Below are positions 3,372 to 64,000 of a stretch of DNA of 64,000 nt, one piece after another. The stretch covers positions 150,249-214,248 of the forward strand of contig JAQGDQ010000262.1 in the NCBI GenBank assembly GCA_030141605.1, in the 5' to 3' direction. The notes under the pieces were generated by a model. It searched no databases, had not been told where the DNA came from, and worked only from the letters and a program-made list of their open reading frames with translations. The translations under genes were made by a program, and so were the position numbers. The stretch comes from Tubiluchus corallicola. Taxonomy: Eukaryota > Animalia > Priapulida. How positions within the stretch are numbered: position 1 is the stretch's first letter; the number at the start of each line of letters is the position of its first letter.

Positions 3372-42324
<38,953 letters not shown>

Positions 42325-46825: not shown

Positions 46826-46973
46826 CTATGAAAGATCTTTACCAAAGCTTCTCCTAAGCCGTGCCTGTTCTGCGGCTGCATGCAGATGCACTGCATCAAA
46901 GTGTTTTAGTAAATCGTCAAAATTTATCATTTTTTTGTGACTTGATTCAGCATCTTTTTTCTTTGTTGAGGAC
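46826..46973 (-). CDS. VAC14: VAC14 terminal exon (...[14 protein letters not shown]...GKDLS*)
   Basis: tttgcag acceptor in phase 2; I-x-F-x-x-LL-x-HF motif of the VAC14 C-terminus. Confidence 0.85.
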
Positions 46974-49900
46974 CTGCAAAATTTAAAAAAAAACTAGCAC
47001 TGCAAATGTTTGCAATATTTGCTGTAATGTCTACGTTTAAAAAAGAATCCGAAATGCGAATTATTGGATTACTCACTTACTGAGTTTTTCTGCCCACCTG
47101 CCTGTCTCGATATATCGTTTAGAATGTCATTTAACGTTGTCATAGAATCTGTTTTATTATAAAAGAATCAGAGTACAAAGTTGCTCAATTATGACATCAC
47201 AATATAAAAACTGGCTAAAATCCAATTACATGAACAACAAAGAGAACAAGAACAATGAGATCGGCTTCACTGCAAAAGAAATCTGTTTATAAAGTTACAT
47301 CGCAAGTGAGTAACCCAAAGATCTAGCTTGGGGAAATTCAAAATTAGAAAGTGCGTATAAATAATTGTGCATTTACATTCTGGATGCCCTACAACTTGAA
47401 CTGCTTGAATCCTTTCACAAACAGCAATGACAGAACAACATTCCACCATGTCTGAAGGACTTCCAAAGCTGAAAGAGTGGAGAAGAGGAAGTGAAGTTCT
47501 TACAAATGTGGTACAAGTCCAGATTTGCGGTACAATTGAATGACTGGTAAGTGTGGGCAAATCTACTCATACCTGGCATGCATAGACCATAATAACAGAA
47601 TCACGAAATCTCATAATGACTTCTGAGGTAATGTAGTTGTTCACGTTCATAAAAGAAAGACAATTGTTGTGATTTAAAAATTCCCTTGCATGGCCAAGAG
47701 ACTTGGTTGTGAAGAATTAGGGTAACATCACATGCACACATCACGACATGAACATATAAGATACAGTAAAGGCTGAAGTCAACACACTCTTATGCCTTAG
47801 ACACCTACGCCATGAGAACATTTATTCCACACACACACACTATTTGTTTACTCAAAACCAGAGAACCGAAGCGAACTCAAGAAGCGCGTAGGCACAAAAT
47901 ATTAGGAGCATAGATATTACAAAAGGAACTTTGCGGCTGTAATATGAAGAAAAAATATTACTTTTTCTCTGCAACAGGTGGCACCGATGCTTGCACATTT
48001 GGAATGCATTGAAGACGATGAAGCAGTGTTCTAAATGCGTCGCTCTGTGGTAGTAACATGAGTAGACCATACAGACTTTTCATCAGATGCTGATTATTCT
48101 CGGTATCAAGTAGCTGCAGTCGTAAATCTGGTAAAGTTTAAGAATGTGGAATCGATTACGGCTGTTATTTAAACATGAGAATAAAACGTGTAAAAATGCA
48201 ACAAGAAACTAAGCCTGTAACACGCGTTGCTCAGGCAGTCAGAAAAAATATGAGACTATAGAACCCAGTCCTCAAAAGCCTTACCCAACAATTTCCCTGT
48301 TTTATAAACCGTTTTTATTAGGTGCATAAATGTGCTGATTTAAACTTGCATTGCCCCCTCTTTTCTGTTATAAATTGGTTTCCTTTTAAACAGGTCATGT
48401 GACCGGTCTTCTACCTGTACACTTACCTGTAGATTGGAGTAACTCAGGCATTCACACACTGCAGTTACAGATTGTTTCGCGTAATTCATTGATTCATTGT
48501 TATAATTTCATAATTACTCTTATAGAAGATTACCATGTAAGTTGATTTATTAATTTCTTAAATCTTGAACCTTTGTTTATTAAAAAGACTAGAGATTAGA
48601 TTTTATAATTTGCGTAAAACTTTGTTAAAGTTAATTAGATCAATTTGGTTTAGATTTCGCCATAAAATTGAGCAAAATTATATAAAATTATCTGATTTGT
48701 TTTCAGATTAAACGATACAAGCTACACAATTATGCTGATGGAGATTTTTTACATGAAGGTAGCACAAAAAATGGGTGAATTAATCATAATATGGAATATG
48801 TAATTTATTAAAGTATCAAACAAGTTGTTTACTACTATTACTAGGAAAAGGAAAGTGTTAATTATTAATTAATGAAAATTATTAAAGGAAAATGTTGACA
48901 TTGTGTTCGAAACAAACCATCAGTAGAAAATTGGTAATTTTTTTATCAAATTTTTCGATTTTTCAAAAAGACAGAGTGTTTTTACAGTAACTCGTGTGCT
49001 TTTAAATAGAAATGCAGCCTTATACAATTTTTACAAAGTTTACACTTAGACTACTCTTTGCAAAAGAGACTTCTTAGTCTCAAATCTTCTAAGTACTGCA
49101 TGACCACTGAGCACCTGATGTCAAACATAGGCTCTAGTACCAGAAATTTGGGTGCTACAGTGATCTGACCAAAAACAAACAAACAAAGAAACAAACAAAA
49201 AACAATTTTTTTAATTATATGAATCAGGTAATAGGAAATTTACACTTTCTTTCTTTGTCTCTTTAGCATTTTGACATTTTAGTATTGAGATTTGTGCATG
49301 TGTATGTGTAAGCGCTCATAGGATTTCAATATGCAGATTCAGATTCTGGGATCCCATGAAATGCCCTATTCCTGAGAAGCTCTTGTGGTACCCCAAAGGT
49401 GAATACATTGCCGTGATAATTTGCAGCCACACAAAACCCGTACAGCAACAATGACAATGATTTCGAGATAAGCAACTCTAGTACTTCATACTCTAGCAAG
49501 ATAAAGAGATTTCACGGAAAAAAGATATGTTATCGAAAACTATTTCAAGAAGATAATTGCCTTTTAATTGGAAAAAAACACAATAGAAGTTTTTGAAGTA
49601 CAAATTTCGTTAGATAATACTTATATAAATACTATAATTATAACTGATTAGAAATATTATTTTTATTTGAAAATGTTTGCTACTTGTTACTGATAAAATT
49701 TTTGGAGTTGCAATTGTGGTTCCACTGCTTTCCTTCTGTGTTTAAACTGTTGCTGGTACTGATGTAATGATTTCACAATAATATAATTTCGCATTACAAG
49801 CTGTGCAAAAGTTTCTCAACATTTTTAATGAAGAATTACTAATATAGATTGACGGAGATTTTTCTTTAAGGCGGTCTTTCAGTTGAAAATATATTAATAT

Positions 49901-52273
49901 TTATATTTTAGTGGCAAGTAAAGTGATATAAGGTATGGTTGGTTGGCATCCTTCTGTCTCGGAAGACAATGGAGTGTGCGTCAAGAGAGACAGTTATTGA
50001 TCACATTAATGGAGCTGGCCGTTGGGTCACTTGACCTCCTCCGCCCTCTAGCCGTTGGCTGCTTGTGCAGCTCCTCCGCCTCGTGTCGAGATACAGTGTT
50101 GGCATCCCGCAAACCTACAGCACCTGGTGTTCCTAGGCGGTCACCCATCCAAGTACTGACCAGGCTCTACGTTGCTTAACTTCGGCGATCAAACGAGAAC
50201 CGGTGTTTTCAATGTGATTTGGCCGTAGTCAAATATAAGGTATAAAGCTCCCTTTTCAGAAATACATCAAGATTCAGCCAAAAAAAGAAAATTTACTGTT
50301 ATACAAAAATACAAGTTCTTTATAGAAACTAATTTCTTGCTGATCACTCCATATAATATTATATTTATGATTTTCATGATCTGTGTATATAAATACTTAC
50401 AAGTAAAGATTGGTGACTCTATTAATTGAACCAGTTTATCGATTTCGGTCAAGAACTCGACCGTGACTTCCAAGTCACCACTATACTGCAAAGTTAGGGA
50501 AAGTATTGCACAGTACAATATATTACTAACGTTTGTATTATAGCAACAAAAAAAATTGAATTGAAAATTGAAGCAAACAAAGCAACTTTTAGAATTCAGC
50601 ACGAAAATAAACGACATAAACTCAACTAGCCTGTCCAGAAAAGTTCAGAGAGTGACCACTTAGAGCCTCCATCATTCGTTCATAAAAGGATACAATTTCT
50701 GTAAAAGTTGACTAGCATGATGATAATTTTGAGTGAGAAAGCACAGTGATACAGTTGCCACCGGGTTAAAGCACCAGGAACGATACAGACACACGAACAA
50801 GCTGCAACTATTCTAAATAAAAACGAAAGAGAATGTTTGATTATTACTTTTAAAAAGAATTTGCAATAACATTGATTAGTATGTACTGGCTGCTATAAAA
50901 TCTATCAACATTATTGTTTTTGCAGTTAAAACCTAACCTAACTTTGCTCCGTATTAGAATTTTGTAACCCACTGATTGCAAGATTTGTAATCTACTGATT
51001 GCAAGATTTGTAATCTACTGATTGTAAGATTTGTAATCTACTGATTGCAAGATTTGTAATCTACTGATTGTAAGATTTGTAATCTACTGATTGTAAGATT
51101 TGTAACCCACTGATTATGAGATTTGTAACACACTGATTGTGAGATTGGTAACCCACTGATTGTAAGATTTGTAATCTACTGATTGTAAGATTTGTAACCC
51201 ACTGATTGTAAGATTTGTAACCCACTGATTGCAAGATTTGTAACCCAGTGATTGCAAGATTTATAACCCACTGATTGTAAGTTTTGTAACCCACTGATTG
51301 TAAGATTTGTAACCTACTGATTGTAAGATTTGTAACCCACTGATTGCAAGATTTGTAACCCACTGATTGTAAGATTTGTAACACACTGATTGTGAGATTT
51401 GTAACCCACTGATTGTAAGATTTGTAACCCACTGATTGTAAGATTTGTAACCCACTGATTGAAAGATTTGTAACCCACTGGTTGTGAGATTTGTAACCCA
51501 CTGATTGTAAGATTTATAACCCACTGATTGCAAGATTTGTAACCCACTGATTGTAAGATTTGTAACCCACTGATTGTAAGATTTGTAACCCACTGATTGT
51601 GAGATTTGTAACCCACTGATTGTAAGATTTATAACCCACTGATTGTAAGATTTGTAACCCACTGATTGTAAGATTTGTAACCCACTGATTGCAAGATTTG
51701 TAACCCACTGATTGCAAGATTTGTAACCCACTGATTGTAAGATTTGTAACCCACTGATTGTAAGATTTGTAATCTACAGGTTGTAAGATTTGTAATCTAC
51801 TGATTGTAAGATTTGTAACACACTGATTGTAAGATTTGTAACCCACTGATTGTAAGATTTGTAACCCACTGATTGTAAGATTTGTAACCCACTGATTGTA
51901 AGATTTGTAACCCACTGATTGCAAGATTTGTAACCCACTGATTGCAAGATTTGTAACCCACTGATTGTAAGATTTGTAACCCACTGATTGTAAGATTTGT
52001 AACCCACTGATTGTAACATTTGTAATCTACTGCATGACTCTCCCCATGCAAGGAAGTAAAGTAGAACAAAAAATAAGTAAGAGAAGTTCTTAAAGTACTT
52101 CTGTTTTCAAATCTTTTAGCCTACTTCGCAGCTCGAATAGTTCCTTCGACGTAAGCAGGATGATGTTGAGTGTTTGCACCATGTGACTAGCGAACTTTAT
52201 ATCTTCTTCATGAAGTAGTATTTCCGCAAATGTCCTGTAGATGTCCTCAGCGCTCAGCAGGACACAGAGCTGC
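46826..52273 (-). CDS. VAC14: VAC14 (PIKfyve/FIG4 scaffold), last five exons: 52099-52273, 50694-50812, 50401-50480, 47962-48127, 46826-46973
   Basis: Translations [29 protein letters not shown]..., [60 protein letters not shown]...[14 protein letters not shown] and [13 protein letters not shown] match the VAC14 Fig4-binding C-terminus. Phases are consistent; TAG stop at 46826-46828. Confidence 0.95.
47962..48127 (-). CDS. VAC14: VAC14 exon ([44 protein letters not shown])
   Basis: Conserved motif; phases match neighbouring exons. Confidence 0.95.
49937..50230 (-). mobile_element. 5S rRNA-derived SINE (SINE3-type) with RTE-like 3' tail
   Basis: Full-length 5S-like head, body, tail TCTTCCGAGACAGAAGGATGCCAACC; TSD ATATAAGGTAT at 49926-49936 and 50233-50243. 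Confidence 0.85.
50111..50230 (-). rRNA. 5S rRNA-like sequence (SINE head or pseudogene rather than an rDNA array copy)
   Basis: Reverse complement GACTACGGCCAAATCAC...GAAGTTAAGC...AGTACTTGGATGGGTGACCGCCTAGGAACACCAGGTGCTGTAGGTTT, 120 nt with box A- and box C-like motifs. Confidence 0.85.
50401..50480 (-). CDS. VAC14: VAC14 exon ([26 protein letters not shown])
   Basis: Highly conserved VAC14 motif; GTAAGT donor. Confidence 0.95.
50481..50693 (-). other. U12-type (minor spliceosome) GT-AG intron in VAC14
   Basis: 5' site GTATCCTTT; branch-like TTTCCCTAAC about 12 nt before the TAG acceptor; no polypyrimidine tract. Confidence 0.9.
50694..50812 (-). CDS. VAC14: VAC14 exon ([39 protein letters not shown])
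   Basis: Conserved LYRSWCxNP motif; followed by a GTATCCTTT donor. Confidence 0.95.
50960..52032. repeat. 23-bp minisatellite, about 46 copies, filling most of a VAC14 intron
   Basis: Unit GATTTGTAACCCACTGATTGTAA. Confidence 0.96.
52099..52273 (-). CDS. VAC14: VAC14 exon ([12 protein letters not shown]...[14 protein letters not shown])
   Basis: Close match to recalled VAC14 sequence; ttttcag acceptor, phase 2 start. Confidence 0.95.
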
Positions 52274-53619
52274 CTGAAAAAGAAATGAAATTAAGAAAAA
52301 CAAGGATTAAAATTCATTTATTTCACAATTTCACAATAGTTTCAAACATTGATCTACGCTGTAACATTCCAGGACTTGGCATAAAGCAAAAATTGCTGTT
52401 TTTAAAGGAAAGCAACATCGTGTTTCGTCTATAAAATACTGTCAATCATAAACTCCAAACAACTTCTGCGTGTTGCTTAACTGACTTGACATTTGATATG
52501 TGATCTCTTTCCATACAAACAGAGATGCAAAGATTTCACAGATGCATCACTGCCAATTGTTAGCAGGTACTAACTGCCACCTGCATGCTTAGTTTAATTT
52601 AATTATAATAATGTCATGCAGGAGGCACCACAGTACAGTAATATTAATTTTGATAAAGTTAATAGTCACAATCCTCTACACACCAAAACAAATAATAGTT
52701 GGACAATTTTTTAATGGTTTCAAAACAAAATATAATGTTGATATGATACTGCATGTAAACTTGGTCTCGTGAAAATATTTGCAAAGAAGAGATGATGACT
52801 GACTAAGAGGTCTTGAGTAATAAAGACAAAAACATCAGAGCGTACCATCATTCACTTTTGTGCAAATTTTAAAAAAAGCCTACCATTTGCGCAAAAATAG
52901 TTTCACAATGTGCACGAATGAATAGAAACATCTCATGGCAAAAGATCTTTTTTAAACTCGTGTTTTTATTTGGTCACAATTCACAGTAAATAAATTCTTC
53001 TTTAAGAAATTTGAAGTTGTGGGTTTGTTATATTTGGATCGTCTTGATCAAAATTTGTTATATTTGATCTAGCTGTGTTATTGATTTTAGCAGGTAGATT
53101 AACAACTACCAACTAAAGAATGATCAAGAGACATACATAACCAGTAAAATCATTTTCCGTAATTATGCAGACCGTAATAGTGTCCATGGAAACAGCAGAA
53201 TAAGAAGTCCTTGCTTCAAGGCACTGGCCTGCAGTGTTTCAAGCATTAAGATGCATGCATGCAGTATAACGTGTATAAGTAACACACACTGACACTTTTA
53301 GCACTTCAAATTAAGCATTAGTTGACTGTCACCGTCATTTTCTTCTTTCTTCAATATCACAGCAGTTTGCCTTGTGACTTTTGACCACCAACAGTGCACT
53401 CTGTGTTATCAGTCACTCCCTCCTCCTAACTTAAAAGTATCTCCCATCTAATTCTTTAAAAGTTACTAAGTTAGTTGCCCACAGCTTTTGAGCCACGATT
53501 GACCTGTGACCTATTTAAAATAGCTGACTGCCCTATCAGGTATTATAAGTTCCTAAGTTTGCTTGCCCATCTTTGCAGTTTTTGTGACATAAGTTTCTTT
53601 CTTCTGATACAATTTTTGT

Positions 53620-53705
53620 GGCTGTTGATGCTGTTGTTGATGTTGTTGTTGTTGTTGTTGTTATTGGTGTTGTTGCTACTATTGTTGTTGTTGTTGCTAC
53701 TGTTA
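53620..53705. repeat. (TTG)n microsatellite
   Basis: Seen directly. Confidence 0.85.
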
Positions 53706-55661
53706 ATAATGATGTATTTTATTGTGGCCACATTTTAATCAAATCTTGCCTTTTATTGTTGGTTTTTGATCTTTTGAAATAGGAAGTACGAATGACTAAA
53801 TGAAAATGATTAAACGTTCAAAGTAGTGAGACACAAACAATTAAAGAAATACATATCGAGGTTTCTTTAAAAATGGATAATCGCATAACCCTATCTTAAC
53901 AACAAGCATAAAACGATTTCTGACAGTTTCAGTCCTGTTACAAATAGATTACCAGGTTAGTGTACCATAGGTTTCTCCCCCGAGTTTTATTAATATAATA
54001 ATTTCTTTAATCGAATCTTGCATTTTCACTGGTGCACCTTTCAACCGGTTCTTTGGCCACACGTTTACGTATTTCATCACCCTTGACCTTTAATCGAGGC
54101 CGAGTTTCGGTACAATACGCACACTCTTGGTCACTCTGGATCACTGGCTCACCAGTTTTATTTCCAAGATTTTGAATTCTAAAAGACAAATAAACCACTA
54201 ACACCTTGACCTTGACCTTTTAATCAAATGTCGCTGCTAACAATAACAGTGCATGAGAACCGTTATCTAGATTAATAGTCCTCGCCTCTGCAGGAGTTCC
54301 GATTTCGGGTGCAGTATGTCGAAATGTGTAAAAAATTGTAACGCTCTGTCATATGCCAGGTGCACCTTTCTTTTAGGAAGGCTCCAGCATATCCCATGAT
54401 CTCGTGCGAGTGTCTCCTCTTCCGCCGGCATTGAAAAATTGACTTGTTTTAAAATGTAAAAAATAACATTATCATTCTAATCATTTATCTAATTAATTTA
54501 ATTAATTTTTTTTGCTCCAAAAAATATGGTACTTACTGATAATTTATAATATAAAATTATATAGCAGAAAAGGGGCAGTGAAGGTCCATACGGTCATCGG
54601 GTTTATCCTAATAACAATATAACAGCTTGGTGCAACAAATTGCTTTATTTAGGGAATTTACAGTTTACGTTATGAAAAACAAACAAAAATAATGACAAAA
54701 AAATAAATCTTTGTATTAAGATACAAAACAAAAATAAAATCAAGGACATTTAAAACGAAAGACGAACAAAAATCAAAGTCAAAATATAAATGGAGAACTT
54801 GAGTAAGTAAACTCAAATTAAAATAAAACAAGAACTAGAATTATCTGATCCGCTAATAGAAACAAAACTCAAAAAAAGATTCAAATCTTTAAATCTGAAA
54901 ATCTTAAACCAAACAGAAATCAAAATCTAATCGAAACCAAACTAAAATATAACACAAAAGAGAACAATTTGAAGAAGAATTTCTACTTTGAAGGAGAAAA
55001 ATTTTTGACGATTTGCAAAAACTCCCCAAGGTTGGGACTCCATATTTGACATTTTGGTTCTGTCAGCCCCATCTCATTAAAAGTAACCATTTCAGTACCA
55101 TGCATTAGATCTGTGTTTTATGATATTAAATCAGCAAATTTTATTACAAAAACTCAACTCAACAAGTTACAAAACAATAACTATGGCCACTAGACCATTT
55201 TATCATCTTGACAGCCACTTGGTAATCCTTTGTTAAATAAAGAGCAAATAACAAAACCATTTCACAAGCAGTTTTACACGCTCAATTGTGGTAAAACCTT
55301 GGTGTAGCTTTACATTCTAAACACCAAGGTAATTAGTTCTAGAAACACGATATTATGGATATTATAAGACCTGTTAAACAGGTTTGCTTACAAATAAATA
55401 TACAATAAGGCCTGTTCATTCTACCAAGATTGGAACCCTGTGTAAATAAAATGTTAAGTACATCGCTAGATTATTTGTTAGCACAAACATAGACTGGTAG
55501 CACAATATCGAGGTGGTAGCATTGCTAAGACGTTACACCTCACGTTGTAAGAAGAAATTTGCAGAACAGTTAAAAGAATTATAATAAAAATTGTCACTTT
55601 TAACGCGGATGTATAACAGTTTAACAAGCACTAGGTGTCACTTAACGTGCTAATTATCTTG

Positions 55662-55694
55662 TGACGTGCATTTTTACTTTATCAGTCTATAAAG
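55662..55694 (+). promoter_or_regulatory. Putative promoter of the nested FGase-like gene (CRE-like TGACGT and TATAAAG)
   Basis: TATAAAG at 55688-55694, 150 nt upstream of the ATG at 55838. Confidence 0.4.
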
Positions 55695-55837
55695 GAAAAA
55701 CGATAGACCTAATTGCTTCCCCGGTGACCAGACCCAGCAGGAGGAGGCTATTCTGAGCCTGTGTCTATAGGTTAGCAGAACACAGTCCTTGGCTGAGCCT
55801 GGAAGCCACCCACACATCTACACCGGATTCCAGTAAG

Positions 55838-58800
55838 ATGTGGCTGCTTTTGCAACTGTGTGTGGTTCTAAGCATTTTACTGCTGCAGCCAACAGAATGT
55901 ATTTTCAGCGAATCTGGATACATAGAGTATATCGAAGGTCAGAGTAACTTAATCATCAGGTAATGCTTAATGGAAAACTACCTTGTTTAGGATTTCGAGC
56001 AGGTAATAAGAAGCTATTGTTTTTAAAAGTCAATAACGCTTTCAAAGTAGCCAGTGTAATTGTGAATGAATCAGTTTCTCCCACGTGTTTATATATACTG
56101 TGCTACTGTGTTTTTCCTAAGTGCTTGTATACTTTTTAGTGCAATATCTTTTTTATGTGTTAATTATATAAACAACAACAAAAAAACTCCCAAAAATTAT
56201 TTGAGTAGTTATAATAGTTACTTGTGATCTTTTCTCTTTTTTGTTCTTGTCTTTTGTTCACCTGAAGAAGAACTAGTGGCAGTTTCAAACGTTATGCTTT
56301 TCCTTTCTTTCTTCCTTGTTTTTTAATCGTGGGTTTCTTATTCATTGCCACTATTCTTGTGATTAAGAATTATTTGTGTTATGAAGTGCATTTGTCATTA
56401 TGTTAAATAAAAACCAACGTTAATTTTATTACATTTATTATTGTTACTTAAAATATCAATACTACTATCTGAGTCATTTGAAGCAAGTGGTTCTCCAAAA
56501 ATGAATACACCTTACATTCCTAAAAACAATACCTAGTTTCTAAGCAACTTCTTGTGAAAACATTCTATTTCACACCTATAGTCATCTATGAGCCACAGCA
56601 GTATGATTGTAAAAAAATTATAGCTAAATTCTACAGCATAAGACTCGAGATTTTGATTATGAATACTGACGAGCCTTCAGTTTCAACAGGTAGGTCCAAG
56701 GGTAATAAAACTTCTTATAAATTAGCCAAAATCCTGTACAACTTTGCAAAAATAATTTCCCACACTACACAGAGTGAAGGATATTTCCACAAACTATTAG
56801 CCTGCTTAGAAGGAAATGTTCATTGCGATGGTTTATTCAGACAAAAAACATGAGTTTGTACAACTTACTTAAATATCCTACTTAAATCTAATAAGAAATT
56901 AGGTGCTCTTATTTATGAAACAAAACTTTACGCTACAACTACAAAGAACTAGTAGTAGTATGGTAAAAACACAAAACTTAAATAATTAACATAATCATAA
57001 ACGAGTTTAAATTACACAATCACAGCACAAGGTTTATCCAGCACTCACAGATTACCACCAATATATAACTGCCTTTTTTATCACATTCATTTAAGTAGTT
57101 TCCAAAGTGAATAAGGTCTTCTGGGTTTGTATAAAGCCACATTACTGAGTATACATTACCTTTTTCTAAAGAGAGATTATATATTTTGTGCTCATATTTT
57201 TGTCTAATATCTTCAAACAAAGGACAAGTAAAAAGGTAATGTAATTCGTTTTCTACTAATGAGCCAACTTTTTGAGCTTATGTTGCGACAGTATTGGCAA
57301 AGCCTTTCATCCTCTTTTTTAGTTTTATATCTACCGCGTTCTATTTCCAGGGCATGGTCGTTCATACGTAATTTTGTAATCTTTACTATTGTAAAAGTAA
57401 TTCAGAAAAGGGACGAATGCTAGCTATAGAACCTTACCTATGTCCACAAACAGCTGCTACACAAATCTACAGATGATAATGTACAGTGCTAGCTAACCAC
57501 GTGTTTCACCCGTTTTACTGAGTCAGATACGTGGCGTGTATAAGGTCACGTGACGGCCGTAGCTAAGCCGCGTTGCTCTGGTACACTTAACCTTTGACCT
57601 GCAACAACTGAGCGTGCGCACAACGAAACTATGAAAAGGCTTATTACCATAGAATAAAAATGTACCATAGAAACACATGTACCAGTCCACTACCCGACAA
57701 ATTATAATTAAAAAAAAGAGCGACTTCAGTTTTTGGAAATGTATCTGGAAGTATTTTCGAGCAAAGTAAGATAATCCTCTCCCAACTTTCCCCTAAGAAA
57801 TGTTTATTCTTTTCAAAACAGCTGGAGAAGAAATATCAGTGCTAATCTCTTTTCAGTGCACCTCATGGAGGAGCCGAGAAACCCGAGGAGATTCCTGATC
57901 GAAAAGGAGGGTGCTTTGTAGACATGAAGTGCATTTATAGCCATGACTGTGGTGAACCAGATCCAGTAAATTGCAGAGTCACTGATTATGCTGTAAGCTG
58001 AGCAAGAAGGATTCTGTTTATTTGCTAGCATAAATATTCTTGCTTATAAGCGCTTATAAATAGTTAGAAAGCATCTTGACCAGATTTTGAACTAACATTG
58101 AAATCCAACTTTGATAAGGCATGTAAAGCTATATTCTAAATAATGAATAATCGATTAAACATTTAATTCATGTTAATGAAAACCATTATTGATGATAATA
58201 CGAGTTATATAGCTCTGGCGTGGCATCCGAAATACAAAAAATAACAAAACATTGAATTATGTTATGCTGCAAAAGTTTGCTAAATTTCTGTAAGGACGAA
58301 TTAAATAATTGATGTTTTATAATGTGATTAACAAAAGCAGTGTAACAAAAAAAAAGAATAATAAATAGTGTGAATTGTACACAGCTTATCCACCATGTTT
58401 CAAAATAACGTATTATCAATTAATGTGCTCAATTTAGACACTGAGTCTTTAAGTTTTCTTCTTTTAAACAGCAGTCCTTAGTTAAACTATGACCTAAAAA
58501 TTACACTTTTCAAAGTAGCTCAAAAATTCATCAAGAATACTGGTAGATTTAAGTAAGGAAACATACTTATATTTTCTTGATCATTCAATCACATTTTGTT
58601 ATGCATTGTTTCTAGCAGAATCTTTTAAAATTTACTTTGTATTTTGTCTGAGGTCTTTACATTAGCTTGGCTTGTTGACCAAAGGTCACATTATATGTGA
58701 AAAATAATAAATGCAATATGTTTATAAGAAAAATAGAGTGAGTTAGCAATCATATAAAATACATATAATTGCATACACATGTTGTGCAGCCTTCTGATTT

Positions 58801-60596
58801 TAGCATCCCAAGAAGAAGTTTATTAGTCAGACATTCACACTACAACACGGCATCTTGAGCATGAACTATACATCTTAGTGAGAGCGAAATGCTATCAAAG
58901 ACTAATGGTAGCACACAGTTTTCACCAAGTTTTGGGCAATACTGATAAAACGGGACACTTTGTACTGTGACTACAATGTATCATAGTAAACATGGGTACG
59001 GTCTCAGTCTCAATTCCAATTAACTAGATAATTCTAAAAAAATTTCCTTGTCACATACTTGAATTGAAATTTTCATAAAAAAATGTCAAATCCATTGTCA
59101 AATGTCAAAGCCAGTGTCAAATCCTTTCCTTTTAGCCTGTGAACATTAAATGATTTGTAATTCCAGCACAGAAAAACCTTCCACAAAAATTAATAACTAG
59201 TATTAATAATAAGAGATTTTACAGAACAATAATTTCAGATTCATTAATATTACAAATTAGAAACATAACAAAGAGCTGTAGGATTGCTACTAGGACATAA
59301 CTTTAATAATCTTAATGTCTTGTAACAGGATTCGTACACGCTTGAGATAACAAAAGCAGTCGTGGAGCAACTCAATGCATTATGGGATGTCCATCCACAC
59401 GCGATTATTAATCATCTGCACAGGAGCAAACTAGATGCAAACAGGAACAAAGAACAAGCTGCGTTTGGTGATCCCACAGCTGAAAAAGCTTGGGAGGAAT
59501 ATCATTACTACATAAATCAGGTAACTTGAAATGATTTATGTTTTCTAACCATCTGACTCTCAGGACGACATGTTTTTCTGTCTGTTTATCCAGTTCAAAG
59601 ACGTTTATCCGACGCACAAAATCTTCAAAACAAATGATCCGGTAACTATATTTAGCAAAAGTTTGGCATATGCAGTCAAAGGTCAAAGGTCAAGGCCATG
59701 AAATATTTAGGCTTACAGTTAAACAATTTAAAGGTCAAGGTCACGAAATATTATTTATTGAATTTTAACCAAAGGCAAAATGTAAAAGTACAGGTTGTAT
59801 TCAACACAGTTGTCAAAGGCAAGAAATCAAAGACAAAGAAAAAATAAGTGACTTATTTTTATATTAGTATATTCTTGTAGGACTGAATGCAATGCAGCAT
59901 TTCTCAAATGGCAAAAAAAGTTTGAATCAGTTGTGTTCAGGACGTGGGAATTCGGTATAGTTGGTTTATACAGGGTGTTCTGTAAGAAACTGTGCAGCAG
60001 AAGTCTGGTTATGTATGTCATATAATTATATTTGATCATGCAAAATGTAGGTTATATGGTATTTTCTCTTAATGTCATATGTTATTGTTATTTTATGACA
60101 TTTTCACGTAATAATTCGTTTCTGTCCACAAGCTAATGGTGCACAATTTCACCAGTTATTGTAGTATAATCTTCACTGGAATTTCATCAGCATGTTTCAG
60201 CATATCAACACATTTCTGTTGACTGTTTTTTTCTGGAGCATCCTGTATAAGCACGTCCTATCAATTCACTCAAAACACATTACGAAATTCTCTGCACTGT
60301 TGTTTTGGAAATCTGCAAATTTTGAAAGTTCATTAAAAAGCGAGACACATACCAATTTATCTTTTCTGGTTAAAGAGCAAAAAGACCATCGGTGGCCACG
60401 CTCTGTACATAGACATGCATGGTGTCAAAACACATGCAGAAGAATGGATAGAGCTGGGATACGTCATCAAAAACACAGAGTTAGATTATGGCAACTACAC
60501 CCACAAAGACAGTTCAATTCGATACTTAGCAGAAGTGCTTGAACGAACGACGAAGGAAGATTTTGACTGGGTTTTGAACGGACACGGCAGTATGGG
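55838..60596 (+). CDS. N-formylglutamate amidohydrolase-like (Zn-exopeptidase fold) secreted protein, exons 1-4: 55838-55959, 57857-57992, 59329-59520, 60376-60596
   Basis: Signal peptide MWLLLQLCVVLSILLLQPTEC, then YIEYIEG..LIISAPHGG..PEEIPDR, DSYT, PHAIINHLHRSKLDANR, AWEEYH, IDMHG and IELGY. Splice phases are consistent. Confidence 0.88.
56990..57420 (-). mobile_element. Decayed LINE 3' end
   Basis: NELHYLFTCPLFEDIRQKY resembles the terminal E-x-H-x-L-x-x-C-x-x-x-x-x-x-R motif of LINE ORF2. Confidence 0.6.
59971..60245. mobile_element. Degenerate mariner-type MITE
   Basis: TA-CAGGGTGTTCTG ... TGGAGCATCCTG-TA ends, similar to the 19631 element. Confidence 0.55.
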
Positions 60597-60879
60597 GTAC
60601 GTCTTTGTCTATAGATTTTTCATCAGTAGTTTACCATAAGCTCTATATTAACTGCTGTAAATGTGGCAACGGTGTGCCGTAGTTGTATATGGCAAACTTC
60701 ATGTATAATTTTTTCAGTAGTTGTGCAGTAACTGTTGTGTAATGTTTGGTGTGCATGCAAGCAGGAAATCAGTTACAGTAACTTTGGTGACAGGTTTGTT
60801 TGATAGGGAAAATGTGGAGGAGGGGGCAATAAAGATGAGCCATAATAATAGCTTATGCTCCAATCAGAAATGTATTCAT

Positions 60880-61251
<372 letters not shown>

Positions 61252-61379
61252 TCGTTTAGAACATAGTGCAGGGATAACACCTTAAGTAACTCAATATGTA
61301 TTGCCAAAGTGGTCCCAATTATAATTACCCCCAAGTTACTTCGATAAACATTAAAAATGTATCAGTCCTCCTAATATAG

Positions 61380-61750
61380 CTAGATAAAAATGTTAAAAAT
61401 ATAAAGCTTAATCCAAAATGGCATCACACAATTTAATACTACCCGACATTATGCGGAAGTTTTGAATACCATTCAGCAATTTTTCTTTATAAATATTTAA
61501 ATGATTTGATGCCAGCTTTCAGTGCCAATCAGCTTCAATTTAAAATCGAAAAAAACGTTAACCCAAAGAACACACAGCATAAAACAAATAATAAATACAA
61601 TTCTGTTTGCAAAGGGGCAATAAATACATGGAATGATTGTCCACCTAATGTAACATCTCCAGTAACTAAAAATGAACTGAAAAATACCATACTAGCCTTA
61701 AAAAAACTAATATGAGAAGATAAAATCACACCACCTTACTGTTATTATCA
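61380..61750 (+). mobile_element. Decayed CR1/L2-like LINE 3' end
   Basis: KYNSVCKGAINTWNDCP...KNELK resembles the LINE C-terminal G...WNxLP motif. Confidence 0.5.
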
Positions 61751-61801
61751 ACATTCACCCAGGGGTCTGTAGTCGTGGCAGATCAAAACCTCATTCTTTA
61801 T

Positions 61802-62479
61802 CACTTGTTTATGCAGTTTTACATACACTTGTTTATGCAGTTTTATACACTTGTTTATGCAGTTTTACATACACTTGTTTATGCAGTTTTACATACACTT
61901 GTTTATGCAGTTTTACATACACTTGTTTATGCAGTTTTACATACACTTGTTTATGCAGTTTTACATACACTTGTTTATGCAGTTCTACATACACTTGTTT
62001 ATGCAGTTCTACATACACTTTTTTATGCAGTTTTACATACACTTGTTTGTGCAGTTTTACATACACTTGTTTATGCAGTTTTACATACACTTGTTTATGC
62101 AGTTTTACATACACTTGTTTATGCAGTTCTACATACACTTGTTTATGCAGTTCTACGTACACTTGTTTATGCAGTTCTACGTACACTTGTTTATGCAGTT
62201 TTACATACACTTGTTTATGCAGTTCTACGTACACTTGTTTATGCAGTTTTACATACACTTGTTTATGCAGTTCTACATACACTTGTTTATGCAGTTCTAC
62301 ATACACTTGTTTATGCAGTTCTACATACACTTGTTTATGCAGTTCTACATACACTTGTTTATGCAGTTCTACATACACTTGTTTATGCAGTTCTACATAC
62401 ACTTTTTTATGCAGTTTTACATACACTTGTTTGTGCAGTTCTACATACACTTGTTTATGCAGTTCTACATACACTTGTT
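61802..62479. repeat. 24-bp minisatellite, about 28 copies
   Basis: Unit ACACTTGTTTATGCAGTTyTACAT, ending just before the VAC14 exon acceptor. Confidence 0.96.
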
Positions 62480-62496
62480 CATTTCTCACATTTCAG

Positions 62497-62708
62497 GTTG
62501 TACTGAGGAACTTGGAAGTGTTAGCAGAAATATCATCGTCTCCAGCCGGACTCAAATATACTGTCTCCTTACCGGACAATGTCAAAGGAGCCATATCTTC
62601 ACCTCCCGGAAACATGAACAGCTATTTTCTAAAGTTTCTGCTGAGCTTAATGAATCTGTTTGCAACGGACAGTCAGCTGCTGGATGACAGAGGATCCTTC
62701 ATAATCCA
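62497..62708 (+). CDS. VAC14: VAC14 exon on the opposite strand to the rest of the gene (VVLRNLEVLAEISSSPAG...MNSYFLKFLLSLMNLFATDSQLLDDRGSFII)
   Basis: Matches the VAC14 segment immediately N-terminal to QLC; tttcag acceptor; CA|GTAAGT phase 2 fits the exon starting at 52273 on -. Confidence 0.92.
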
Positions 62709-62899
62709 GTAAGTTCTATTTTATCATGTATCAGCATTTCCTTCATTATGCTTAAGTAAGCGTACTTAAGTTAGTAATCCTTACTAAGTAGCAATAACAG
62801 TAATTTAGTGGATTTATGACCTCACAATATCGGGGATTATACATGAACAACAAGAATACCACAGAAGTTCGACATTTCTAAAGTTGTATACCGTATAGT

Positions 62900-63240
62900 A
62901 CTTAAAGCACAAGAAAACCCTCACTTACATTTTTTTGAAATATGCCGGCATCAATGTTCGTTTGGCTGGAGATAAATATTTTAATTTCTTTTACATTTTT
63001 AAGCAAAGCCTTCTGTGTGCATATTTTGTATTGTGATTTCAATATTTTTAATTGTATATTAGAATGCAATAAATGTTGTTCTAGGGTTGGTTCTTCCTTT
63101 AAATGTTTTGCGATTTTTGTCAATATATTCGTACACCCGAGGAAGCCATTGTCCAGGTTTCTCATCCCCGTCAATGTGATGACTTCAAATTGGCTGTGTG
63201 ACATCGTATTAGGCTATGCTGGCCAGGACATATAGATCTT
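62900..63240 (-). mobile_element. Possible Penelope-like GIY-YIG endonuclease relic
   Basis: Degraded ...MRNL...TKIAKHL...ILK...KEIKIFI pattern. Confidence 0.35.
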
Positions 63241-63567
63241 TGAACGCAGCTTAATATAAAGAACATTTGTTACCCAAGTCTAAAAATCTGTACTTTTTTA
63301 ATTCATGAAACAAGATCAAATTACAGCATGCAAAGATGATATGTCGATGACTTTTTACTATTACTTACAAAATATGTACTGCTCAGTGGTAACAACTCTA
63401 ACTATAAGTCTGTTGTTTTCACTATCTGGTTGACAGCAATCATGACTATAAATGTGCCTTCCATACACAGGCACACACACAGAAAAACCCGCCATTTTGT
63501 CCTTTTTTCAGTGAAATAAAATTTTATCATAATGTAATTAAGTAGGACAGTTATGTAACATCCAGTC

Positions 63568-63880
63568 TTAGTACACAAACAACATGAACCATAAATTTCC
63601 AAATAAGAACATTACTGAAGACAATGATATGTGTGTACCGACACTGTAATACATCTCCATGTAATCATGAATAATCTTTGCGACTTCTGGACACACCGTC
63701 TGGCATTGTTCTTCATTGCGCAGGCGCAGTGGCAGCTCTATTTGTATTCCGTCTACGACTCCGCCATCTTTTGAACCATGAATTTGAGTGTTGTAACCAC
63801 CGCGGAAGTATCCTTTCCCATTCGGGGTCGGGTATTGTGGGGATGGTATCACTTTATGTCCAATCTGCTGAAACATCCAG
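63568..63880 (-). CDS. Terminal exon of the FGase-like gene, on the opposite strand (WMFQQIGHKVIPSP...YFRGGYNTQIHGS...DGIQIELP...hydrophobic tail)
   Basis: ttgacag acceptor in phase 2 completes the GG|C Gly codon left by exon 4; family motifs GGY and QIE; C-terminal hydrophobic segment. Confidence 0.88.
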
Positions 63881-64000
63881 CTGTCAAATGTAATAATAAT
63901 AATTATAATAAAATTCGTTATTGCTATAAAAATTACACATCATTGAAAGGTAAACTACACATTCAAAAACTGATAGTACAGCCAGTGTTTCCACTGCTGT

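What the first reader, a model, noticed from the sequence alone, without database searches (positions are those of the whole stretch)
52099..63880. Two interleaved genes each have one exon on the wrong strand: reciprocal strand switch implying an inversion
Seen: the VAC14 exon ending RGSFII-CA| is on + (62497-62708), but its phase-matched successor (G-CAG-CTC-TGT, QLC) and all later exons are on - (52273 and below). Conversely, FGase-like exons 1-4 are on + and end in GG|, while the phase-matched terminal exon (C-TGG-ATG) is on - (63880-63568). All exons and splice sites look intact. Inference: flipping one block that starts between 60597 and about 62480 and ends beyond 63880 repairs both genes, giving an FGase-like gene nested antisense in one VAC14 intron. 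VAC14 is a conserved gene, so the most likely explanation is an assembly misorientation at the 60.9-61.25 kb microsatellite or the 24-bp array. A heterozygous inversion allele is possible; antiparallel-exon trans-splicing, as in Drosophila mod(mdg4), is the least likely but most interesting option.
Basis: partly seen in the sequence, partly recalled or inferred. Interest (0 to 1): 0.85.

Follow-up and report, generated by a model that had tools for sequence, protein, structure and literature searches.

The report
Flipped DNA block splits two genes
In this animal genome sequence one piece of DNA lies back-to-front, so the conserved gene VAC14 and an enzyme-like gene inside its intron each have one intact exon on the wrong strand; this is most likely an assembly error or a rare broken copy in the sequenced animal, not a new way of splicing.

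Summary
VAC14 residues 431-501 are on + (62497-62708); five later exons are on - (52273-46826). An FGase-like gene has four exons on + (55838-60596) and its last on - (63880-63568). Read in protein order, both sets give stop-free frames with AG/GT splice sites. An intron-free public sequence, 98.6% identical, joins the VAC14 exons normally. One flipped block explains both genes.

Public contigs match the window up to the 372-bp microsatellite at 60880 and from 63420 to 64000. So the left break lies in the repeat-rich stretch 60.9-62.5 kb, and the right break lies beyond the window. Depth is about equal on both sides, which argues against a true duplication. No data I could lay crossed the left break, so an artefact and a real allele cannot be told apart.

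Odds: assembly or library artefact 0.55; rare real inversion allele 0.37; true inverted duplication 0.04; trans-splicing 0.04. Trans-splicing would need three trans joins, two of them around an internal VAC14 exon. Interest is low unless long reads from several animals show the flip is fixed.

The parts
62497..62708 (+). [quoted passage not shown]
   Evidence: tblastn 97% to P0001, AG/GT ends; carries N where 41 of 43 homologues have D
52099..52273 (-). VAC14 next exon (phase-2 partner of the + exon)
   Evidence: Pfam Vac14_Fig4_bd E 7.6e-19
50694..50812 (-). VAC14 exon
50401..50480 (-). VAC14 exon
47962..48127 (-). VAC14 exon
   Evidence: Pfam Vac14_Fig4_bd E 2.7e-15
46826..46973 (-). VAC14 last coding exon with stop
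   Evidence: open frame ending in a stop; joined C-terminal part 60-61% identical to named VAC14 proteins
55838..55959 (+). FGase-like exon 1 (coding part; hydrophobic signal-peptide-like N-terminus)
   Evidence: ORF list, GT donor and frame; weak homologue support
57857..57992 (+). FGase-like exon 2 (PHGG motif)
   Evidence: 70 of 150 homologues
59329..59520 (+). FGase-like exon 3
   Evidence: 100 of 150 homologues
60376..60596 (+). FGase-like exon 4, ends in phase 2 (GG|GT)
   Evidence: 101 of 150 homologues
63568..63880 (-). FGase-like last exon, on the strand opposite to exons 1-4; inside the flipped block; hydrophobic C-terminal tail
   Evidence: 148 of 150 homologues; open in a second sample, 5 of 9 coding differences silent
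60880..61251 (.). Compound microsatellite (CAA)n(CTA)n(TTA)n with a pure 222-bp CTA run; first candidate for the left break
   Evidence: TRF; contigs of X1, X2 and X3 all end 11 letters past 60895
61252..61801 (+). 550-bp spacer with a probable decayed LINE ORF2 C-terminus; which side of the break it belongs to is unknown
   Evidence: Atlas third hit 'RNA-directed DNA polymerase' 0.91, recognition below threshold, a lead only; no convincing Pfam hit; resemblance otherwise recalled
61802..62479 (.). 24-bp x 28 minisatellite running into the acceptor of the + VAC14 exon; second candidate for the left break
   Evidence: all units in one orientation
63900..64000 (.). Start of a dispersed repeat that runs off the window; the right break lies beyond
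   Evidence: summed depth rises to about 30 times the single-copy level; one X4 contig spans 63422-64000

Best explanation
A block that begins in the repeat-rich stretch 60.9-62.5 kb and ends beyond 64 kb is written back-to-front in this assembly, most likely through an assembly or library artefact, so the animal's working chromosome would carry an ordinary VAC14 gene with an ordinary FGase-like gene nested antisense in one intron. Shown: the strand switch, intact exons, a normally ordered VAC14 coding sequence from the same or a very close taxon, and the bounds on the breaks. Inferred: both genes are spliced in cis from an unflipped allele. Also inferred: the flip entered the contig through a local strand switch, for example an inverted chimeric molecule or a wrong path at the pure CTA run or the 24-bp array. 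A fold-back that also repeats the left part further right in the assembly counts under this explanation.
For: One flip repairs two independent genes with perfect phase and no decay. P0001, from a 2,205-bp Logan contig that holds 637 codons and so must be intron-free, joins the exons in normal order at 98.6% identity over 207 aa. Contigs from 3 runs of the best-matching sample follow the window up to the microsatellite and stop there, so the break sits where such contigs cannot test it. Exon 5 is open in a second sample about 3% diverged (19 differences in 579 nt; 5 silent, 4 conservative, no stop among 9 coding), which fits a working gene. Vac14-null mice die perinatally (PMC2600653, passages), so a fixed broken state is unlikely if the gene matters as much here. 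Inverted chimeras dominate in amplified long-read libraries, mean false inversion 1,493 bp (bioRxiv 10.64898/2026.06.11.730069, passages). Weak hint only: contig depth in X1 and X3 rises together about 1.5-fold at 57.8-59.9 kb (13 to 19-23; 6 to 10) while X2 stays near 150, as an amplified library might give.
Against: No read or contig was seen that joins the left flank to the unflipped partner, so the artefact is not demonstrated. There is no N gap at the break, which argues against a scaffolder orientation error. Kilobase tandem arrays are resolved, which points to long reads that should span a 372-bp microsatellite. A random misjoin at a common microsatellite would be expected to reach a distant locus, not a neighbouring piece of the same gene. 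Library types are not on record. In one animal study, C. elegans assemblies had similar inversion counts with and without amplification, 144 vs 117 (PMC11660948, passages). The D435N change at a near-invariant site fits a decaying real allele slightly better.
Confidence: 0.55

Rival explanations
1. A real, young inversion on one chromosome of the sequenced animal (a rare heterozygous null for both genes) that the assembler happened to output; the other chromosome makes the normal mRNAs.
For: No gap at the junction, long-read-grade sequence, and a local rearrangement. Repeats lie at or near both ends. The sample is heterozygous, with half-depth allele contigs (7 vs 14; 74 vs 167). D435N lies in the flipped exon. 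Intact exons are expected of a young allele.
Against: No inverted repeat pair that could drive it is visible inside the window: the 550-bp spacer, the left flank and the 24-bp unit had no blastn match elsewhere. The one candidate pair, (TTA)n at 61227-61251 with (TAA)n at 63891-63911, was not supported: X4 bridges it, and none of the 24 loose-end rows shown (of 53) matched the predicted partner.
Confidence: 0.37
2. A true inverted duplication: the sequence to the right continues as a mirror copy with the complete FGase-like gene on - and the 3' part of VAC14 on +.
For: The right end is outside the window, so it is not excluded. The FGase-like family has relatives with tandem domain duplications (P0044, P0045).
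Against: Contig depth of the block equals that of the left part (X1 13.5 vs 13-23; X2 199.5 vs 149-187; X3 4-9 vs 5-10; X4 11.4 vs mostly 9-16), not half; the tool warns that such depth is no copy number. Neither copy would be a complete VAC14, so a third would be needed.
Confidence: 0.04
3. A fixed inversion rescued by spliceosomal trans-splicing between antiparallel transcripts, as in Drosophila mod(mdg4).
For: All splice sites and frames are intact, and a normally ordered VAC14 coding sequence exists; this fits, but fits the other explanations equally. The mod(mdg4) arrangement is thought to have arisen through small inversions (PMC4528330, passages). Because the genes are antiparallel, each primary transcript could in principle run through the other gene's displaced exon in its sense direction (inference).
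Against: If the 5' VAC14 exons lie on - beyond the block (not seen), it needs three trans joins, two of them around a constitutive internal exon. The known fly cases use one join onto alternative 3' exons. There is no exact TSA core in the window, and the best U1-pairing sites after the two donors (8 and 9 of 11) do not exceed control introns (8, 9, 8, 11). No evidence shows the flip in a second animal. No paper holds both 'VAC14' and 'trans-splicing'.
Confidence: 0.04

Closest known systems
False inversions in long-read assemblies from inverted chimeric molecules (bioRxiv 10.64898/2026.06.11.730069; PMC11660948; passages read)
   Same: Local strand switch of kilobase scale inside a gap-free contig, intact sequence on both sides.
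   Different: Amplification of this library is not on record; the chimeric read itself was not seen.
Heterozygous gene-disrupting micro-inversion in an outbred animal (general knowledge)
   Same: Both breaks in introns near repeats, exons undecayed, heterozygous sample.
   Different: The second break and any repeat pair were not observed.
Drosophila mod(mdg4) and lola intragenic trans-splicing (PMC4528330, PMC4387717; passages read)
   Same: Exons of one protein on opposite strands in the written sequence, normal-order mRNA.
   Different: There the displaced parts are alternative 3' exons with their own promoters, conserved across species, one trans join, TSA motif. Here an internal constitutive exon is displaced, two genes are hit reciprocally, and no conservation, promoter or TSA is shown.
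VAC14 (scaffold of the PIKfyve/Fab1-FIG4 complex; Pfam PF11916, PF12755)
   Same: C-terminal Fig4-binding region; P0001 passes both Pfam cut-offs.
   Different: Residues 1-430 are outside the window.
N-formylglutamate amidohydrolase (FGase/HutG, PF05013)-like proteins of animals and protists
   Same: 35-41% identity over about 285-310 aa to uncharacterised proteins of Owenia, lampreys and Diphylleia.
   Different: Relatives score below the Pfam and NCBIfam cut-offs; this protein has hydrophobic ends suggesting secretion and a membrane anchor (inference); activity untested.

Membership tests
mod(mdg4)-type trans-spliced gene | Exons on opposite strands in the true chromosome, shared by individuals or species | tested here: inconclusive
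mod(mdg4)-type trans-spliced gene | mRNA joins the antiparallel exons in protein order | tested here: inconclusive
   P0001 joins the VAC14 exons, but differs at 3 of 207 residues and its source genome's order is unknown; no such sequence found for the FGase-like gene
mod(mdg4)-type trans-spliced gene | Displaced parts are alternative 3' exons needing one trans join | tested here: not met
   The displaced VAC14 exon is internal, residues 431-501 of a ~730-aa protein
mod(mdg4)-type trans-spliced gene | TSA core or unusually strong U1-pairing site in the last 5' intron | tested here: not met
   0 exact TSA cores on either strand; best U1 pairing 8-9 of 11 vs 8-11 in four control introns (motif)
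mod(mdg4)-type trans-spliced gene | Independent promoters for the displaced exons | not testable with these tools
   No raw RNA reads; the promoter scan is bacterial
Assembly or library false inversion | Independent molecules support only the unflipped order | not testable with these tools
   Only contigs were served, and they end at the microsatellite
Assembly or library false inversion | Break falls in sequence that is hard to assemble | tested here: met
   Left break confined to about 60896-62480: microsatellite, probable LINE remnant, minisatellite
Assembly or library false inversion | Scaffold gap (N) at the break, for the scaffolder subtype | tested here: not met
   0 N in 64,000 bases
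True inverted duplication | Left part at twice the depth of the central block | tested here: not met
   Equal contig depth in 4 of 4 runs; a weak measure
VAC14 | Vac14_Fig4_bd domain above the Pfam cut-off | tested here: met
   68.4 and 56.8 bits vs cut-off 25 for two single exons
FGase / HutG (PF05013, TIGR02017) | Score above the curated cut-off | tested here: not met
   3 of 5 relatives hit PF05013 at 20-23.5 bits vs 28.9; TIGR02017 18.8 vs 278.75 in 1 of 4; single exons of the window gene had no FGase hit; the joined protein was not scanned

The most novel reading that the evidence does not exclude
The flip is fixed in the species, and two nested antiparallel genes rescue each other: each primary transcript runs through the other gene's displaced exon in its sense direction, and trans-splicing rebuilds both mRNAs, including a double trans join around a constitutive internal exon of VAC14.
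Probability: 0.04. Interest if true: 0.92.

Novelty: not a real feature. Interest (0 to 1): 0.2.

Why it matters
If an artefact: it marks a local misorientation that would make annotation call VAC14 and an FGase-like gene broken in this genome; a useful correction, no new biology. If a real heterozygous allele: one example of a single inversion knocking out two nested genes, ordinary genetic load. Only if it is fixed would it matter much: obligatory multi-step trans-splicing of a conserved housekeeping gene, beyond the two well-supported fly genes described in PMC4528330.

Tried and rejected
No whole genome is held for this window, so the sequence beyond 64 kb and the 5' VAC14 exons could not be located. 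Right break at the (TAA)n tract 63891-63911: suggested, rejected (X4 bridges it; X1, X2 and X3 contigs run from the exon to 63934 with no difference, 23 letters past the tract). Left break in the unique stretch 60597-60895: rejected for the best-matching sample. A 361-nt X4 contig fits 60638-60881 and goes on for 118 other letters that were not shown; it did not appear on exon 5 (X4 depth there is one contig only); unresolved. Word-indexed homologue searches with FGase-like exons 5 and 4 found nothing. PDB search with the + VAC14 exon: 0. Metagenome scans: 0 loci by protein and 0 by a 24-nt pattern. Inverted-repeat scan: the 25 longest of 435 pairs were all the microsatellite pair at 17.2/29.1 kb. 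Earlier findings: none for this genome or look-alikes. Paper searches were seen as listings with abstract starts; five papers were read as passages only; no supplements were read. No structure or complex prediction was run, as it could not bear on the question.
Full report
Observation. The window is gap-free animal DNA of about 36% GC with many resolved tandem arrays; the named best hits of the VAC14 exon are arachnids, annelids and a nemertean at about 47-59%, so the group is not determined. The exon at 62497-62708 on + encodes VAC14 residues 431-501. tblastn with four homologues puts every later match on -, from 52273 down to 47961, and finds no exon for residues 1-430. The second gene was tested with 150 relatives found by an exhaustive search with its last exon: 148 hit 63880-63568 on -, and 101, 100 and 70 hit the three + exons; in 71 of 101 the + exon 4 and the - exon 5 are adjacent in the protein. 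Read in protein order, the exons give 327 aa and 299 aa without internal stops and with AG/GT at all internal junctions. Read straight on, exon 4 stops after 14 codons and the VAC14 exon after one.

Geometry. One inversion with its left break between exon 4 of the FGase-like gene and the + VAC14 exon, and its right break past the acceptor of exon 5, restores both genes. The result is an FGase-like gene nested antisense in the VAC14 intron between residues 501 and 502. This follows from the coordinates.

The normal product exists. P0001 (637 aa, one Logan contig of 2,205 bp, so intron-free) is 98.6% identical over 207 aa and runs FIIQ-QLCV across the strand switch. It differs at three residues, so it comes from another individual or a close species. 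It shows a normal VAC14 message, but not how it was made. No such sequence was found for the FGase-like gene.

Public DNA. Six runs were listed, all as contigs; X1-X3 are one sample (shares 0.82, 0.76, 0.41; possibly the assembly's own source, so not independent) and X4 is a second sample (0.28). On 52040-60895, X1 (680 nt), X2 (1,637 nt, from 59270) and X3 (443 nt) follow the window to the end of the stretch and end 11 letters further on, inside the microsatellite. The left break is therefore not in the unique part of intron 4. On 63420-64000, X1 and X2 match without a difference to 63934, and one X4 contig spans 63422-64000 with 19 differences; a dispersed repeat begins near 63900. The right break is therefore beyond the window, and my own candidate at the (TAA)n tract failed. 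X4's exon 5 has 9 coding differences: 5 silent, 4 conservative, none a stop. Depth is about equal left of and inside the block in all four runs, which argues weakly against a true duplication. One X4 contig leaves the window at 60881 for 118 unseen letters and is the best open lead.

Which cause. The left break is confined to a compound microsatellite with a pure 222-bp CTA run, a 550-bp probable LINE remnant and a 24-bp x 28 array. For an artefact: undecayed exons, an open exon 5 in a second sample, perinatal lethality of Vac14-null mice (PMC2600653, passages), and the known excess of kilobase inverted chimeras in amplified long-read libraries (bioRxiv 10.64898/2026.06.11.730069, passages). 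X1 and X3 also rise in depth together at 57.8-59.9 kb while X2 is flat, a weak hint of amplification. Against: there is no N gap, long reads should span these repeats, the library type is not on record, and amplification did not raise inversion counts much in a C. elegans test (144 vs 117; PMC11660948, passages). The D-to-N change at a site where 41 of 43 homologues have D leans slightly to a real dead allele, or is a plain variant or base error. I put the artefact at 0.55 and a real heterozygous inversion at 0.37. These odds are judgement, not computed.

Trans-splicing. [quoted passage not shown] Here an internal constitutive exon is displaced; if the 5' exons lie on - beyond the block, three trans joins are needed. 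No TSA core is present, and U1 pairing after the two donors is no stronger than in control introns. A search for papers holding both VAC14 and trans-splicing found none. It is not excluded, because the flipped order was neither confirmed nor refuted in a second animal: 0.04.

Names. VAC14 membership is met. The second gene is FGase-like only: relatives score below the curated cut-offs, and its hydrophobic ends suggest a secreted, membrane-anchored hydrolase (inference).

Earlier notes of this scan on other genomes describe similar single flipped exons with similar readings; they are unchecked and are not support.

Verdict. The reciprocal strand switch is real in the written sequence and is a DNA-level flip. 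It is most likely not a feature of the species. Interest 0.2.

Noticed in passing
window 50112-50230 (-): Full-length 5S rRNA match (100.1 bits) inside a VAC14 intron, followed by about 190 bp of GC-richer sequence; could be a dispersed 5S gene or the head of a 5S-derived SINE (recalled resemblance).
   Followed up: partly
window 57368-57663: Very high-copy short element just upstream of FGase-like exon 2: summed contig depth about 700 to 1,700 times the single-copy level in X1 and X2; MITE-like or SINE-like.
   Followed up: no
window 57020-57401 (-): Two overlapping ORFs that resemble a LINE ORF2 C-terminus (recalled; no convincing Pfam hit) in FGase-like intron 1; depth about 25 times single copy.
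   Followed up: partly
window 4158-42321 (+): A CUB-domain gene (Pfam CUB at 4158-4379 and 10430-10630) with a probable membrane segment near 36152-36385 and a 485-codon ORF at 40867-42321, lying tail to tail with VAC14; strand-consistent as far as seen.
   Followed up: partly
   Followed up: partly
window 55838-55959 (+) and 63568-63630 (-): The FGase-like protein has hydrophobic stretches at both ends (signal peptide and possible GPI-type tail), unlike cytoplasmic bacterial HutG (recalled); two relatives (P0044, P0045) hold the domain twice.
   Followed up: partly
window 60638-60881: A 361-nt contig of the second sample (X4, depth 35.6) fits here and then runs on for 118 letters unlike the window, so that animal may lack or differ in the microsatellite.
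   Followed up: partly
window 17255-17734 and 29130-29274: Long (AAT)n and (ATT)n tracts form an inverted pair 11.7 kb apart, the first compounded with (ACT)n, like the microsatellite at 60880.
   Followed up: no
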